The position numbers were made by a program, and so were the translations under genes. Of a DNA stretch of 14,087 nt, positions 585 through 9,850 are shown piece after piece. The notes beneath the pieces were generated by a model. It saw nothing but the letters and a program-made list of their open reading frames with translations. It did not search any database and was not told where the DNA came from. The number at the start of each line of letters is the position of its first letter. Positions within the stretch are counted from its first letter, which is position 1. Origin of the DNA: a virus; UHGV virus genome UHGV-1356053. One strand, 5' to 3'.

Positions 585-610
585 AGGACGCATAGTCGTC
601 CTTTATTTTT
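585..610 (+). terminator. Rho-independent terminator candidate
   Basis: AGGACG (585-590), 6-nt loop CATAGT, CGTCCT (597-602), then TTTATTTTT. Confidence 0.6.
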
Positions 611-757: not shown

Positions 758-819
758 GCATACCAATAACGCTTCACTCGAGGCGTTTTCGTTATGCAAT
801 CAAACAGAAGGAGTTACCC

Positions 820-4598: not shown

Positions 4599-4694
4599 AA
4601 GCGAAGCTTATACATATCTTTTACATCAGCAATCTATTGTTAATCTCCAATCAATGTTACGTTGTCATCTCACTCATGCTTTGGAGGTAGTGAT

Positions 4695-4874
4695 ATGTCT
4701 TGTCCAAAATGCGGTTGTGGAAATATTGCAAAAGAAAAAACAATGCGTGGATGGTCTGGTGATTATGTGTGCTGCGATTGCGGATACAACGACTCTAAAG
4801 ACGCATTTGGAGAGCGTGGTAAAAACGAGTTTGTCAAAATTAATAAAGATCGCGAAGGCAACGGAAAAAGCTAA
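4695..4874 (+). CDS. Small zinc-ribbon protein (59 aa, two CxxC-type pairs)
   Basis: ATG 4695 with GGAGG 7 nt upstream; MSCPKCGCGNIAKEKTMRGWSGDYVCCDCGYND... Confidence 0.6.
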   Translation: MSCPKCGCGNIAKEKTMRGWSGDYVCCDCGYNDSKDAFGERGKNEFVKINKDREGNGKS

Positions 4875-4939
4875 TTTATTATTCATATATGAAAACAATG
4901 TAACCAATATTCGAATTGAAGAACTGAAAGAACACCAAG

Positions 4940-4960
4940 CCGCCTGATGGCGGTTTTTTT
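4940..4960 (+). terminator. Rho-independent terminator
   Basis: CCGCC (4940-4944), loop TGAT, GGCGG (4949-4953), then seven T (4954-4960). Confidence 0.7.
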
Positions 4961-4974
4961 ATTGGAGACAAGAA

Positions 4975-5319
4975 ATGTCAGATTTGGCTATGAAGGTTTT
5001 GAAATGGCAATCAACTGGCGATGTTGGCATCAGTAGCGCAACTCTTGCCTCAATCGCATGTGGGCTGAAAAAGAATATCTATGGTCATCACTTCGGCGCT
5101 CCCCATGACGCAGCAGACTTTCGGCGATGCGTTGCACTTGTTGAGCAGATTCCAGAAATCAGAGATTCATTCGACAAGGTTGCAAAGCGCGTTCCGGCAT
5201 TCAAAGGAATCCTCAACGAATGGGATTCACTCGTTGCTCTGTTGAAGTCTGAAATGAAGATACACGGAAACAAAGCACCAGAGACTTACAGAAGAATCAG
5301 CGAGCTACGCAAGGACTAA
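4975..5319 (+). CDS. Hypothetical protein, 114 aa
   Basis: ATG 4975 with GGAGA 6 nt upstream, immediately after the 4940-4960 terminator; no recognisable motif. Confidence 0.75.
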   Translation: MSDLAMKVLKWQSTGDVGISSATLASIACGLKKNIYGHHFGAPHDAADFRRCVALVEQIPEIRDSFDKVAKRVPAFKGILNEWDSLVALLKSEMKIHGNKAPETYRRISELRKD

Positions 5320-5406
5320 CCCGCCTCACACTCGATGAGGCCTGTACATTTCTCAAGATATCCAGACCTACCGCAATCATGTCAATCCAATAAATGGAGA
5401 TTCCAG

Positions 5407-5754
5407 GTGGAAGAAGAAATCTTCACTCGTGAAGAAGCTGCGTCGTATCTGAAGGTAGACAAAGGCACTATCACACAGTGGATACGAAGTGGACGACTTC
5501 AGGCCGCAAAGATAAATCCAGATAAACCTAAAAGTCCATATCGCATTTGCAAGTCAGACTGCATTGCGGCGCTTAAGTCTGTGAGACACAATAGCGCGGT
5601 GAATGCGGTTGATGTGCAGGAGGTTAAAGCATGTCAATCAAACTACGCGGTGGCACGTGGCACTGCGATTTCGTCGCGCCAGATGGATCAAGAGTTAGAC
5701 GCTCTCTTGAAACATCGGACAAAAGGCAAGCGCAAGAACTTCACGATCGTCTGA
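5407..5754 (+). CDS. xis: Excisionase (helix-turn-helix Xis family), 115 aa
   Basis: GTG 5407 with GGAGA 6 nt upstream is the best-supported start (the track's ATG 5335 has no RBS); FTREEAASYLKVDKGTITQWIRSGRLQAAKI is an excisionase-type HTH; 3' end overlaps the int start by 124 nt in another frame. Confidence 0.65.
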   Translation: MEEEIFTREEAASYLKVDKGTITQWIRSGRLQAAKINPDKPKSPYRICKSDCIAALKSVRHNSAVNAVDVQEVKACQSNYAVARGTAISSRQMDQELDALLKHRTKGKRKNFTIV

Positions 5755-6791
5755 AAGCAGAAGCGTGGAGAGTAAAAAATCTCGGGGAATCACCGAAAAA
5801 GCTATTCAAGGAAGCCTGCATACGGTGGCTGCGTGAGAAATCGGATAAGAAGTCCATTGATGATGACAAGAGCATTATATCGTTCTGGATGTTGCACTTC
5901 AGAGAAGCCATTCTCTCTGACATAACAACAGAAAAAATAATGGAGGCGGTAGACGGGATGGAAAACCGCCGCCATCGCCTGAACTGGGAGATGAGCCGGG
6001 ACAGGTGTTTGCGACTTGGCAATCCGGTGCCGGAGTATAAACCAAAGCTGGCAAGCAAAGGAACGAAGACGAGGCATCTGGCAATACTTCGCGCCATTCT
6101 CAATATGGCTGTTGAATGGGGATGGCTTGACAGGGCACCCAAAATATCAACACCACGCGTTAAGAATGGACGCATCAGATGGCTTACAGAGGAGGAATCG
6201 AAGCGCCTGTTTGCAGAAATTGCTCCTCACTTCTTCCCTGTGGTCATGTTTGCAATCACGACAGGCCTTCGCCGTTCCAACGTTACAGACCTTGAGTGGT
6301 CACAGGTCGATCTGGATAAGAAAATGGCATGGATGCACCCTGATGAAACAAAAGCTGGCAATGCGATCGGAGTTCCTCTTAACGAAACCGCATGCCAGAT
6401 ATTAAGAAAACAGCAGGGGCTCCATAAGAGATGGGTATTTGTCCACACCAAACCTGCCTACCGAAGCGACGGAACAAAAACAGCAGCGGTAAGGAAGATG
6501 AGAACCGACAGCAACAAGGCATGGAAGGGAGCGTTAAAGCGGGCAGGCATTAGCAACTTCCGCTTCCATGACCTGAGGCATACCTGGGCAAGCTGGCTGG
6601 TTCAGTCCGGTGTCTCTCTTCTTGCACTTAAAGAGATGGGAGGATGGGAAACTCTCGAAATGGTTCAAAGATACGCCCACCTTTCAGCCGGGCATCTCAC
6701 CGAGCACGCGAGCAAAATCGATGCGATTATAAGTCGCAATGGCACAAATACGGCACAAGAGGAGAACGTAGTTTACTTAAATGTGAGGTAA
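5631..6791 (+). CDS. int: Tyrosine integrase, P22 Int type (386 aa)
   Basis: AGGAGG upstream of ATG 5631; resembles P22 Int throughout as recalled (KRQAQELHDRLKAEAWRV, TGLRRSN, FRFHDLRHTWASWLVQ, GGWE..EMVQRYAHL with the catalytic R..HxxR..Y pattern); ends 15 bp from the att core. Confidence 0.97.
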   Translation: MSIKLRGGTWHCDFVAPDGSRVRRSLETSDKRQAQELHDRLKAEAWRVKNLGESPKKLFKEACIRWLREKSDKKSIDDDKSIISFWMLHFREAILSDITTEKIMEAVDGMENRRHRLNWEMSRDRCLRLGNPVPEYKPKLASKGTKTRHLAILRAILNMAVEWGWLDRAPKISTPRVKNGRIRWLTEEESKRLFAEIAPHFFPVVMFAITTGLRRSNVTDLEWSQVDLDKKMAWMHPDETKAGNAIGVPLNETACQILRKQQGLHKRWVFVHTKPAYRSDGTKTAAVRKMRTDSNKAWKGALKRAGISNFRFHDLRHTWASWLVQSGVSLLALKEMGGWETLEMVQRYAHLSAGHLTEHASKIDAIISRNGTNTAQEENVVYLNVR

Positions 6792-6805
6792 CTTATTGAT
6801 TTAAA

Positions 6806-6851
6806 TGGTGCCGATAATAGGAGTCGAACCTACGACCTTCGCATTACGAAT
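6806..6851 (-). other. attP core: 46-bp copy of the 3' part of tRNA-Thr(CGU) (thrW-type target); not a complete tRNA gene
   Basis: Minus strand reads ATTCGTAATGCGAAGGTCGTAGGTTCGACTCCTATTATCGGCACCA: anticodon-loop 3' half, T-arm GGTTCGACTCC, acceptor 3' strand and CCA. The sequence 5' of it (GGTGCTACAG) does not continue the tRNA, so only the att-core part is present. Confidence 0.85.
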
Positions 6852-6910: not shown

Positions 6911-7046
6911 AGTTGATGGCACAAACAGAAAGTTGATGCATGATGTTGTCATGTGTATGTCACAAATACGGCACAACGATCTTCAAACATGTAGCCACTC
7001 AGCATAGAAGAGCACAAAGCCTTGCAATCCAGTGCAAAGCTTTGTG
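6911..7046. repeat. Short repeats in the attP arm; candidate arm-type Int/IHF sites and a hairpin
   Basis: AGTTGATG twice (6911-6918, 6931-6938); sCACAA(A/C) four times (6918-6927, 6959-6969, 6970-6979, 7010-7020); inverted repeat CACAAAGC (7013-7020) / GCTTTGTG (7039-7046) followed by T-rich sequence. Confidence 0.4.
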
Positions 7047-9582: not shown

Positions 9583-9834
9583 ATGGGAAGAGATGACCCG
9601 CAATTTAATCTGCGGCTACCTTACGAATTAAAGGAAAAACTAAAACAGCGAGCCAAATCCAATGGCCGCTCTCTTAATTCAGAATTAGTTCAGATAGTGA
9701 CTGATGCTGTATCAAAGCCATCCAAAATTTCAGGCTATCGAGACGATGCGGAACGCATCGCTGATGAGCAGTCAGAGCTTGTTAAGAAGATGGTGTTTGA
9801 TACGCTGAAGGATTTGTACAAAAAACCCACCTGA
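9583..9834 (+). CDS. mnt: Mnt-type ribbon-helix-helix repressor (83 aa)
   Basis: MGRDDPQFNLRLPYELKEKLKQRAKSNGRSLNSELVQIVTDAVSKPSKISGYRDDAERIADEQSELVKKMVFDTLKDLYKKPT matches P22 Mnt along its whole length as recalled, including the C-terminal ADEQSELVKKMVFDTLKDLYKK. Confidence 0.93.
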   Translation: MGRDDPQFNLRLPYELKEKLKQRAKSNGRSLNSELVQIVTDAVSKPSKISGYRDDAERIADEQSELVKKMVFDTLKDLYKKPT

Positions 9835-9850
9835 AGGTGGGTTAATTTTT
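9824..9850 (+). terminator. Rho-independent terminator of mnt
   Basis: AACCCACC (9824-9831), loop TGAA, GGTGGGTT (9836-9843), then AATTTTT; the mnt stop codon lies in the loop. Confidence 0.75.

What the first reader, a model, noticed from the sequence alone, without database searches (positions are those of the whole stretch)
4940..5319. Terminator-insulated unknown gene just upstream of xis
A strong intrinsic terminator (4940-4960) is followed 14 bp later by a 114-aa ORF with a good RBS and no recognisable motif. In an antiterminated early-left operon the terminator restricts its expression to read-through conditions. Genes at this end of the ea region are frequently anti-defence or host-takeover functions.
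Basis: inference. Interest (0 to 1): 0.45.

Follow-up and report, generated by a model that had tools for sequence, protein, structure and literature searches.

The report
Lambdoid ORF114 cassette behind a terminator
The terminator and the 114-codon gene are real, but both are already-catalogued pieces of lambda-like phages (ORF114 of phage 434, and the hairpin that stands in front of xis in lambda); what the protein does is still unknown, and it belongs to a very large phage family with no annotation and no known fold.

Summary
Observation confirmed. Window 4937-4960 is a GC-rich hairpin plus T7. A GGAG lies 7 nt before the ATG at 4975, and the 114-codon ORF ends at 5319. xis (5407-5754), int (5631-6791) and attP (6804-6851) follow.

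The gene is not new. It is ORF114 of phage 434, equivalent to HK022_32 and mEp213_026 (97-100% aa identity), and DNA of this stretch matches 2715 of 5426 complete E. coli genomes. The hairpin is the one at the 3' end of lambda orf55, directly before lambda xis; P22 annotates it as a terminator. The window keeps only the last 15 codons of orf55.

ORF114 is one of several alternative fillings of the slot before xis: nothing in lambda, the unrelated eaC in P22. A terminator-like hairpin precedes it in 79 of 81 copies and there is no promoter of its own. Expression by antiterminated pL read-through is therefore the best reading, but that holds for every distal pL gene.

The protein is a confident 7-helix model (pLDDT 93) with no PDB fold match and no Pfam, NCBIfam or PADLOC hit. 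The family has 2772 clusters across many phyla, no conserved neighbour, and an invariant P-x-D-x-x-D-x-x-R-C motif. Function is unknown; my best guess, a stoichiometric host-factor or anti-defence binder, is inference only.

The parts
4695..4874 (+). eaG-like zinc-ribbon gene (59 aa), the upstream neighbour; its stop marks the left edge of the intergenic linker
   Evidence: PGAP names it 'Eag protein' in a 97% identical E. coli prophage. It is near-identical to P22 eaG and its downstream spacer. phrog_2945.
4900..4947 (+). Relic of the 3' end of lambda-type orf55 (VTNIRIEELKEHQAA + TGA); the left boundary of the conserved ORF114 module is at about 4900
   Evidence: Identical to the end of lambda orf55 (lambdap35) and of 434 ORF55. 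Megablast matches to 434, HK022 and mEp213 start at window ~4900.
4937..4960 (+). Intrinsic-terminator hairpin AAGCCGCC-TGAT-GGCGGTTT plus a T7 run; the orf55 stop codon TGA sits in the loop
   Evidence: The same sequence stands before lambda xis and in the P22 eaG-eaC spacer, where the record annotates it as a terminator. The orf55-end hairpin or a variant of it is the best upstream hit in 50 of 81 copies.
4964..4967 (+). Shine-Dalgarno GGAG, 7 nt before the ATG, inside the linker TTATTGGAGACAAGAA shared by all copies
   Evidence: P22 eaC uses nearly the same linker, TTATTGGAGACAATAA.
4975..5319 (+). ORF114 coding sequence (114 aa, 12.7 kDa, pI 9.2); predicted seven-helix protein of an unannotated family
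   Evidence: phrog_1229; pLDDT 93.
5320..5372 (+). Conserved tail of the cassette. It contains the hairpin GCCTCA-CACTCGA-TGAGGC (5323-5341, no T run). In frame 3 it holds the start of the peptide LTRLTLDEACTFLKISRPTAIMSIQ (5316-5390), apparently a relic of an excisionase 5' end. The mosaic joint to the SfX/P22-type xis is at about 5372.
   Evidence: Megablast matches to 434, HK022 and Huey end at window 5372. The fragment's only Pfam hit is HTH_17, E = 0.0019. It is conserved in most of the 80 related loci.
5407..5754 (+). xis (GTG start, 115 aa, HTH_17 excisionase), overlapping int
   Evidence: (phrog_2907, E = 1.5e-52).
5631..6791 (+). Tyrosine integrase
6804..6851 (.). attP (thrW type), showing that the window is the phage rather than the prophage configuration
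   Evidence: 48/48 identical to the attP feature annotated in mEp213.

Best explanation
Window 4900-5372 is a mobile gene cassette of lambdoid phages. It consists of the tail of orf55 with its intrinsic terminator, a fixed Shine-Dalgarno linker, the gene ORF114, and a short relic of an excisionase gene. It occupies the last slot of the early-left (pL) operon, immediately before xis-int.

The cassette has no promoter. ORF114 should therefore be made only when antiterminated pL transcription reads through the hairpin, that is, early after infection or induction, together with the recombination genes, abc2 and xis/int (inferred from anatomy and from lambda/P22 biology, not measured).

The terminator-plus-RBS linkers also act as the short homologies at which alternative cassettes are swapped. 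The slot is empty in lambda, holds ORF114 in 434, HK022, mEp213 and this phage, and holds eaC in P22.

The product is a small, stand-alone seven-helix protein of a very large unannotated phage family. Its invariant residues sit mostly at predicted helix starts, so they probably hold the fold together, while charge varies widely between members. My committed guess for function is a dispensable early accessory protein that binds and neutralises or redirects a host factor stoichiometrically, most plausibly a nuclease-type defence or DNA-metabolism protein, rather than an enzyme or a DNA-binding regulator.

Approximate sub-claim confidences: identity and cassette anatomy 0.95; read-through-only expression 0.75; host-factor or anti-defence binder 0.35.
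For: Identity: 97-100% aa identity to ORF114 of 434, HK022_32 and mEp213_026.

Terminator: fold and scan. The same hairpin stands before lambda xis. P22 annotates the same hairpin as a terminator. The 434 record annotates the flanking tL4 and t'-I terminators.

Cassette behaviour: there are two classes of upstream context, both ending in hairpin + T run + TGGAGACAAGAA, and 79 of 81 copies have an upstream terminator-like hairpin. The lambda hairpin equals the 5' part of the upstream hairpin joined to the 3' flank of 434 t'-I. eaC is unrelated but uses the same linker. A 33%-identical homologue in Mannheimia phage 3927AP1 has the same annotated layout: terminator, gene, terminator, small gene, integrase.

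No promoter: none found in the scan upstream of the gene, GC content is like the neighbours, and no cII/C1 box lies near.

Operon context: cIII, kil, arf, erf, ssb, abc2.

Real, selected gene: 81/81 intact, 44 synonymous against 16 non-synonymous variant codons.

Protein: pLDDT 93, seven helices. The invariants S20, S21, P43, D45, D48, P60 and W83 fall at predicted helix starts. Net charge ranges from -8 to +12. No conserved neighbour appears in 47 sequence groups. Gene company is that of early DNA-protection regions: abc2 here, SSB, exonuclease, a RadC-like protein (judged from its HNHPSG motif), methyltransferases and Lar elsewhere. The domain is fused to several small N-terminal domains, including zinc ribbons, which fits an adaptor-like module.
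Against: There is no functional evidence at all. No transcript, protein or phenotype data were found. No similarity to any known anti-defence or defence protein was found. Termination efficiency and read-through were not measured. The 434 copy of the hairpin carries a stem mismatch, and P22 annotates it for an antisense RNA, so its role on the sense strand is assumed. The strictly invariant D-x-x-D-x-x-R-C could equally be a catalytic or ligand site. I could not inspect model coordinates, so 'structural helix caps' is inferred from secondary structure alone. The neighbourhood association is weak and typical of any early phage gene.
Confidence: 0.55

Rival explanations
1. ORF114 is a dedicated anti-defence protein, for example an inhibitor of a restriction, RecBCD-like or other nuclease system. 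It would be expressed with abc2 from the same operon to protect replicating phage DNA.
For: It lies in the same pL operon as abc2. Homologues lie near Lar-like, methyltransferase, SSB and exonuclease genes, and near a RadC-like ORF identified by motif only. It is accessory and patchy: absent from lambda and P22 and truncated in some Stx phages. Surface charge is variable.
Against: No hit in PADLOC or to any solved anti-defence fold. It is not a DNA mimic, since charge is not consistently acidic. The sequence is absent from the held supplements of two E. coli accessory-gene screens. Presence across at least eight phyla with no fixed partner argues against one specific defence target.
Confidence: 0.25
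2. ORF114 modulates the lysis-lysogeny or integration-excision decision, like other exo-xis-region genes of lambda. It would act on Int, Xis or a host factor they need, which would explain why it sits next to xis whatever the int-xis type.
For: It is always immediately upstream of xis in lambdoid contexts with lambda-type and SfX/P22-type int-xis, and in a 33%-identical Mannheimia homologue. The cassette tail carries an excisionase relic. Exo-xis genes as a group are reported to bias the decision (PMC8614690).
Against: Homologues also occur in phages where the flank examined shows no integrase nearby, inside early gene arrays: Sashavirus Solent, 60-kb Vibrio phages, and linear-plasmid prophage N15 gp42. 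In most of the 47 genome groups no integrase was among the recurring neighbours. Adjacency to xis is equally explained by mosaic synteny.
Confidence: 0.12
3. ORF114 is a small enzyme or ligand-binding protein of a new fold, with the invariant P-x-D-x-x-D-x-x-R-C plus S20/S21 and W83 forming an active or binding site, possibly for a nucleotide or RNA.
For: Seven residues are strictly invariant at about 30% mean column identity. One fusion joins the domain to a CCA-adding/poly(A) polymerase plus HD protein (P0167). Chimeras with dATP/dGTP pyrophosphohydrolase genes exist in E. coli prophages.
Against: There is no similarity to any enzyme fold. The invariants lie at helix starts typical of capping boxes. 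The CCA-enzyme fusion is a single unverified protein, and the pyrophosphohydrolase chimeras look like recombination joints between neighbouring genes.
Confidence: 0.1
4. ORF114 is a moron expressed from the prophage for the benefit of the lysogen, for example superinfection exclusion or defence. The flanking terminators would insulate it from the phage operon.
For: It is flanked by terminator-like hairpins in most relatives and lies at the att-proximal end of the prophage, where morons are common.
Against: There is no promoter-like sequence and only 14 nt between the T run and the ATG. It is on the same strand as pL, and its GC content does not differ from its neighbours. There is no downstream terminator in this window and no PADLOC hit.
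Confidence: 0.05

Closest known systems
ORF114 of coliphage 434 (GenBank M60848; = HK022_32, mEp213_026, phrog_1229)
   Same: Same gene: 97-100% aa identity, same length, same linker and RBS, same position immediately upstream of xis.
   Different: In 434 and HK022 it follows a complete ORF55 and is followed by the t'-I hairpin and a lambda-type xis. Here ORF55 is reduced to 15 codons behind eaG, t'-I is missing, and xis-int is of the SfX/P22 (thrW) type.
Lambda hairpin at the end of orf55 (lambdap35), directly upstream of xis/pI; positional equivalent of the t'-I terminator annotated in 434
   Same: Identical stem-loop AAGCCGCCTGATGGCGG plus T run, preceded by the same orf55 codons.
   Different: In lambda the hairpin is followed at once by the TTGCN6TTGC box and xis. 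Here ORF114 lies between them, and no such box is present near the gene. That lambda's hairpin is the one named t'I rests on positional equivalence with the 434 annotation, not on a lambda record.
P22 eaG-eaC spacer and eaC (with the 'aI RNA' terminator)
   Same: The eaG gene, the spacer, the orf55 relic, the hairpin and the RBS linker are nearly identical to window 4695-4974. The slot before xis is the same.
   Different: P22 fills the slot with eaC (211 aa), which is unrelated to ORF114 (E = 2.1) and contains a C1-activated antisense promoter. The P22 record assigns the hairpin as terminator of that antisense RNA. No equivalent promoter box is found here.
Lambda exo-xis region genes (orf60a, orf63, orf61, orf73, ea22, ea8.5, orf55)
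   Same: Same operon segment, same early pL-dependent expression logic, same small, dispensable, poorly understood character (PMC8614690).
   Different: No sequence relationship. ORF114 is not present in lambda and is not treated in that literature.
N15 gp42 and the wider unannotated family (2772 clusters at 50% identity)
   Same: Shared ~105-aa domain with the W...G.(S)S...P.D..D..RC...PE...W motif.
   Different: 27-45% identity. Many members carry extra N- or C-terminal domains, and genomic contexts differ.

Membership tests
ORF114 / phrog_1229 protein family | Full-length sequence similarity to the family profile and to the founding member (434 ORF114) | tested here: met
   phrog_1229 E = 7.1e-52 over residues 1-114; 97.4% aa identity to 434, 98.2% to HK022.
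ORF114 / phrog_1229 protein family | Family motif: invariant S20, P43, D45, D48, R51, C52, W83 | tested here: met
   All present in the window protein; invariant in a 57-sequence alignment.
Intrinsic (rho-independent) terminator | GC-rich stem-loop immediately followed by a U tract | tested here: met
   8 pairs (5 G-C), 4-nt loop, T7 run; -11.4 kcal/mol, z = -2.7.
Intrinsic (rho-independent) terminator | Terminates RNA polymerase in vitro or in vivo, and is read through by N/gp24-modified polymerase | not testable with these tools
   Only database annotations of the same or flanking hairpins as terminators are available.
Moron (autonomously expressed prophage insert; Hendrix/Juhala definition recalled from memory) | Own promoter upstream of the gene | tested here: not met
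   No sigma-70-like site upstream of the gene, and only 14 nt between the T run and the ATG.
Moron (autonomously expressed prophage insert; Hendrix/Juhala definition recalled from memory) | Own terminator downstream and base composition unlike its neighbours | tested here: not met
   No downstream terminator-like site in this window, although most relatives have one. GC is 0.43-0.47 across the ORF114 windows, against 0.38-0.51 in the flanking ones.
Known defence or anti-defence proteins | Sequence or fold similarity to a described system or inhibitor | tested here: not met
Excisionase / recombination directionality factor | HTH_17 or lambda-Xis-type winged-helix domain | tested here: not met
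   ORF114 has no Pfam hit. The HTH_17 domain belongs to the next gene, 5407-5754, and to the 25-aa relic at 5316-5390.
Early-left (pL) operon of P22/lambda-type phages | Co-linear, same-strand order cIII-kil-recombination genes-ea genes-xis-int | tested here: met
   pL, nutL and the antiterminator gene lie outside the window, so antitermination itself was not examined.

The most novel reading that the evidence does not exclude
The ORF114 domain is a previously unrecognised protein fold that phages of at least eight bacterial phyla deploy early in infection. It would be a stand-alone inhibitor or adaptor acting on a broadly conserved host process or on nuclease-type immunity. The fixed D-x-x-D-x-x-R-C core would serve as scaffold, or as a ligand site, and the variable surface as the arms-race interface. 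Characterising the lambdoid copy (HK022, 434 or mEp213, all in genetically tractable phages) would then annotate thousands of phage genes at once.
Probability: 0.3. Interest if true: 0.6.

Novelty: already known. Interest (0 to 1): 0.33.

Why it matters
As a sequence feature it changes nothing. The gene and the hairpins have been in GenBank records of 434, HK022, P22 and lambda for a long time, and the terminator is not a special insulator of this gene.

Two things are worth keeping. First, the locus is a clean example of terminator-plus-RBS linkers acting as the joints for cassette exchange at the xis-proximal end of the pL operon. Lambda, 434 and P22 represent the empty, ORF114 and eaC states of one slot. 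Second, ORF114 is the handle on a very large family with no annotation: 2772 clusters at 50% identity, DNA of this stretch in about half of complete E. coli genomes, and members from Proteobacteria to Chloroflexota, Actinobacteria and Bacteroidota. Its structure prediction is confident and matches no solved fold. The gene sits in model phages where a clean deletion and a defence-panel or pull-down experiment are easy, so it is a cheap target for assigning a function.

Tried and rejected
- Pfam, NCBIfam and PADLOC on ORF114, on 57 diverse members and on 52 longer fusion proteins gave nothing except weak zinc-ribbon hits and one CCA-enzyme fusion.
- PDB by sequence, with a single sequence and with a profile, gave nothing.
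- The afdb50 fold library was unavailable.
- BFVD returned only uncharacterised homologues.
- Literature searches for ORF114, phrog_1229, the peptide and HK022_32 found no papers. The tL4 search led only to the exo-xis modelling paper, which does not cover this gene.
- The peptide and DNA sequences are absent from the held supplements of two accessory-gene screens.
- Guilt by association over 69 loci in 47 sequence groups found no conserved partner. SSB, DUF5131-like proteins and cytosine methyltransferase each occur in only 4-5 groups.
- A Rosetta-stone link between the upstream zinc-ribbon gene eaG and the zinc-ribbon-ORF114 fusions was rejected, because there is no sequence similarity.
- Homology of ORF114 to P22 EaC was rejected.
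- A cII/C1-type promoter box near the gene was not found.
- No Rfam family occurs anywhere in the window.
- A DNA-mimic or uniformly basic DNA-binder reading was rejected on charge.
- The search for related loci with the broad alignments failed for lack of a conserved 7-10 column stretch.

Full report
**1. The observation**

The sequence is as described.
- Window 4937-4956 forms the stem-loop AAGCCGCC-TGAT-GGCGGTTT (core CCGCC/GGCGG at 4940-4953), followed by a T7 run at 4954-4960.
- Fourteen bases later, at 4975, an ATG opens a 114-codon ORF ending at 5319. GGAG at 4964-4967 lies 7 nt before the ATG.
- The hairpin folds at -11.4 kcal/mol. The surrounding 56 nt fold better than 198 of 200 dinucleotide shuffles.
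- The window as a whole has about twice as many terminator-like sites as its shuffles, 29 against 12.8 +/- 3.9.

**2. The surroundings**

The + strand carries a P22-type early-left operon:
- cIII (~820-954), kil (939-1091), an arf-like gene (1088-1258)
- erf (1346-2053), ssb (2054-2560), abc2 (2574-2870)
- Ea22-like and DUF551 genes
- the zinc-ribbon gene eaG (4695-4874)
- ORF114
- an HTH_17 excisionase (GTG 5407-5754)
- a tyrosine integrase (5631-6791)

Window 6804-6851 is identical, 48 of 48 bases, to the thrW-type attP annotated in phage mEp213. A tailspike gene and an Arc-like gene follow on the other side. The window is therefore a P22-like phage genome in its non-integrated arrangement. 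pL and the antiterminator gene lie outside it.

**3. The gene is already catalogued**

Megablast of 4600-5700 finds 231 phage records and 2715 of 5426 complete E. coli genomes. The conserved module runs from about 4900 to 5372.
- In GenBank M60848 (phage 434) the same gene is annotated 'ORF114'. It lies between ORF55 and xis, with a terminator 'tL4' upstream of ORF55 and a terminator t'-I between ORF114 and xis.
- In HK022 it is HK022_32, noted as 'N15 early protein homolog'. In mEp213 it is mEp213_026.
- Protein identity to these is 97-100%.
- Everywhere it is annotated 'hypothetical protein'.
- N15 gp42 carries the domain (profile E = 5.6e-19).

**4. What the terminator is**

In lambda, orf55 (lambdap35) ends ...VTNIRIEELKEHQAA-TGA. 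The last codons and the stop form exactly this hairpin (AAGCCGCCTGATGGCGG + T6). It is followed at once by CTTGCGTGTAATTGCGGAGAC and the xis ATG.

Window 4900-4947 is that same orf55 tail. The rest of orf55 has been replaced by eaG and its spacer. The 97-codon ORF 4654-4947 listed mechanically is an artefact of that joint.

P22 has virtually the same eaG, spacer, orf55 relic, hairpin and RBS linker. There the linker leads into eaC (211 aa), which is unrelated to ORF114. The P22 record annotates this very hairpin as a terminator, assigned to the antisense 'aI' RNA.

In 434 the downstream t'-I hairpin (GCCGCATCAATGCGGC + TTTTCTTGCGTGTAATTGCGGAGAC) shares its 3' flank with the single lambda hairpin. 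Lambda therefore looks like the ORF114-less state of the same site, with the joint falling inside the terminator.

So the hairpin is a genuine, previously annotated element. It belongs to the end of the preceding module and is not a device specific to ORF114.

**5. Cassette behaviour**

I examined 80 IMG/VR loci encoding a 98-100% identical protein.
- The 60 nt before the ATG fall into two classes. About 52 loci have the orf55-tail hairpin. About 28 have the lambda tL4 hairpin plus a second hairpin (ACTCGC-TACG-GCG[A/G]GT + TTTTGTTTT). Both classes join the gene through the same TGGAGACAAGAA linker.
- Counting the window, 79 of 81 copies have a terminator-like hairpin within 70 nt upstream. 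Most have another downstream (t'-I type or GAGCCGCTATATGGCGG). Eleven, including this window, have none.
- A homologue with only 33% identity in Mannheimia phage 3927AP1 is annotated with the same order: terminator, gene, terminator, small gene, integrase.
- The conserved tail after the stop codon (5320-5372) is part of a frame-3 stretch (5316-5390) that reads LTRLTLDEACTFLKISRPTAIMSIQ*. Its only Pfam hit is HTH_17 (E = 0.0019). It looks like the relic of an excisionase 5' end carried along with the cassette.
- The cassette shows no promoter-like site, no cII/C1 box and no compositional anomaly, so it fails the moron definition.

The simplest reading is that ORF114 is translated from the antiterminated pL transcript together with xis and int. 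This is inferred from anatomy and from established lambda/P22 biology. It applies equally to every gene distal to the first pL terminators.

**6. The protein**

ORF114 is under purifying selection. All 81 copies are intact. Among 54 alleles there are 44 synonymous and 16 non-synonymous variant codons.

A profile search of 1.84 billion representatives finds 2772 clusters at E <= 1e-3 and 602 at E <= 1e-10. Genome hits span Alpha-, Beta- and Gammaproteobacteria, Actinobacteria, Chloroflexota, Bacteroidota, Acidobacteriota, Gemmatimonadota, Planctomycetota, Myxococcota (Polyangiaceae) and Patescibacteria. Phage hits include Vibrio, Arthrobacter, Aeromonas and Sashavirus phages.

In a 57-member alignment S20, P43, D45, D48, R51, C52 and W83 are invariant. 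W11, G18, S21, G30, L55 and P60 are nearly so.

AlphaFold2 gives a confident seven-helix model (pLDDT 93.3, pTM 0.86).
- In BFVD it matches only uncharacterised homologues.
- Pfam, NCBIfam, PADLOC and PDB sequence searches are empty, for the window protein and for the family.

Most invariant residues coincide with predicted helix starts (SS at helix 2, DPxD at helix 3, PE at helix 4, WD at helix 6). Net charge ranges from -8 to +12. Together this suggests a conserved scaffold with a variable surface. It argues against a DNA mimic or a uniform nucleic-acid binder. I could not inspect coordinates, so this is inference.

**7. Context and fusions**

Clustering all ORFs within 5 kb in 69 loci (47 sequence groups) finds no conserved partner. 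The most frequent neighbours are a DUF5131-like protein (5 groups), SSB (4) and cytosine methyltransferase (4).

Individual contexts place the gene among recombination and early DNA-protection genes:
- abc2 in this window
- a DUF3799 exonuclease with overlapping stop and start in L095
- a Rad52-like annealase, a PD-(D/E)XK-type exonuclease and a RadC-like protein (all three identified by sequence motif, not by a family search), plus a methyltransferase, in Dehalococcoidia prophages
- Lar in a Vibrio phage

Fusions exist to zinc ribbons, to a recurrent ~75-aa N-terminal domain of unknown nature, to a ~150-aa C-terminal extension, once to a CCA-adding/HD enzyme, and once to a second copy of itself. 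None of these gives a function.

**8. Explanation and rivals**

I hold the cassette anatomy and the identity with ORF114 with high confidence. Read-through-only expression has good but indirect support.

For function I commit, at about 0.35, to a dispensable early accessory protein that acts by stoichiometric binding of a host factor. The most plausible target is a nuclease-type defence or a DNA-metabolism protein.

The rivals are:
- a modulator of integration-excision or lysogeny, favoured by constant adjacency to xis in lambdoid phages but weakened by homologues found where the examined flank shows no integrase
- a small enzyme or ligand binder built on the invariant motif
- a prophage-expressed moron, which is contradicted by the lack of a promoter

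**9. Comparison, novelty and score**

The feature is a member of the ORF114/phrog_1229 family; membership was tested and met. It sits behind the lambda orf55-end hairpin (sequence identical). It is not a moron, not an excisionase, and not a member of any described defence or anti-defence family.

As a sequence feature it is already known and ordinary for a lambdoid phage. Residual interest lies in the size, breadth and complete lack of annotation or fold match of the family, and in how easy it would be to test in HK022, 434 or mEp213.

Interest is 0.33. The most novel reading still open is a new fold used by phages of many phyla as an early host- or defence-targeting module. I give it probability about 0.3, and interest 0.6 if true.

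Noticed in passing
window 5316-5390 (+, frame 3): The conserved tail of the ORF114 cassette reads LTRLTLDEACTFLKISRPTAIMSIQ*. Its only Pfam hit is HTH_17 (E = 0.0019). It looks like the relic of the 5' end of an excisionase gene, and it is carried along in most of the 80 related loci whatever xis follows.
   Followed up: partly
window 4900-4947 and ORF 4654-4947: The last 15 codons plus stop of lambda orf55 survive behind eaG. The 97-aa ORF 4654-4947 produced by mechanical ORF listing is a chimera across this joint and overlaps eaG in another frame.
   Followed up: yes
window 6804-6851: A 48-bp stretch is identical to the thrW-type attP annotated in phage mEp213, directly after int. ARAGORN finds no complete tRNA, so the window is in the phage (attP) configuration.
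   Followed up: yes
window 7013-7046 (-): A long 14-bp-stem inverted repeat (CACAAAGCTTTGCA...TGCAAGGCTTTGTG) lies in the int-tailspike intergenic region. It contains TTGCACTGGATTGC, one of only two TTGCN6TTGC matches in the window. It could be a terminator for the tailspike gene or a protein-binding site.
   Followed up: no
window 585-602, 728-749, 768-787 (+): Three closely spaced terminator-like hairpins lie upstream of and around the start of the cIII-like ORF, reminiscent of the tL terminator clusters of lambda.
   Followed up: no
window 4695-4874 versus proteins P0094, P0207, P0221: Some distant family members carry an N-terminal zinc ribbon fused to the ORF114 domain, and here a zinc-ribbon gene (eaG) is the upstream neighbour. 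No sequence similarity links the two, so the coincidence is probably meaningless.
   Followed up: yes
window 5631-5754: xis and int overlap by 124 nt in different frames, as annotated by PGAP in a near-identical prophage and as in P22.
   Followed up: no
window 9824-9843 (both strands): A perfect palindromic hairpin AACCCACCTGAAGGTGGGTT has T-rich flanks on both strands. It looks like a bidirectional terminator at the 3' end of the Arc-like gene 9583-9834, overlapping its last codons.
   Followed up: no
proteins P0048 and P0051; Stx phage hits H78-H80: Several Stx2 phages and E. coli prophages keep only the first ~56 codons of ORF114 (phrog_8038) or chimeras with neighbouring genes (Ea22-like, DUF550 pyrophosphohydrolase, Erf, Kil). 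This shows frequent recombination joints inside the gene and suggests it is dispensable.
   Followed up: partly
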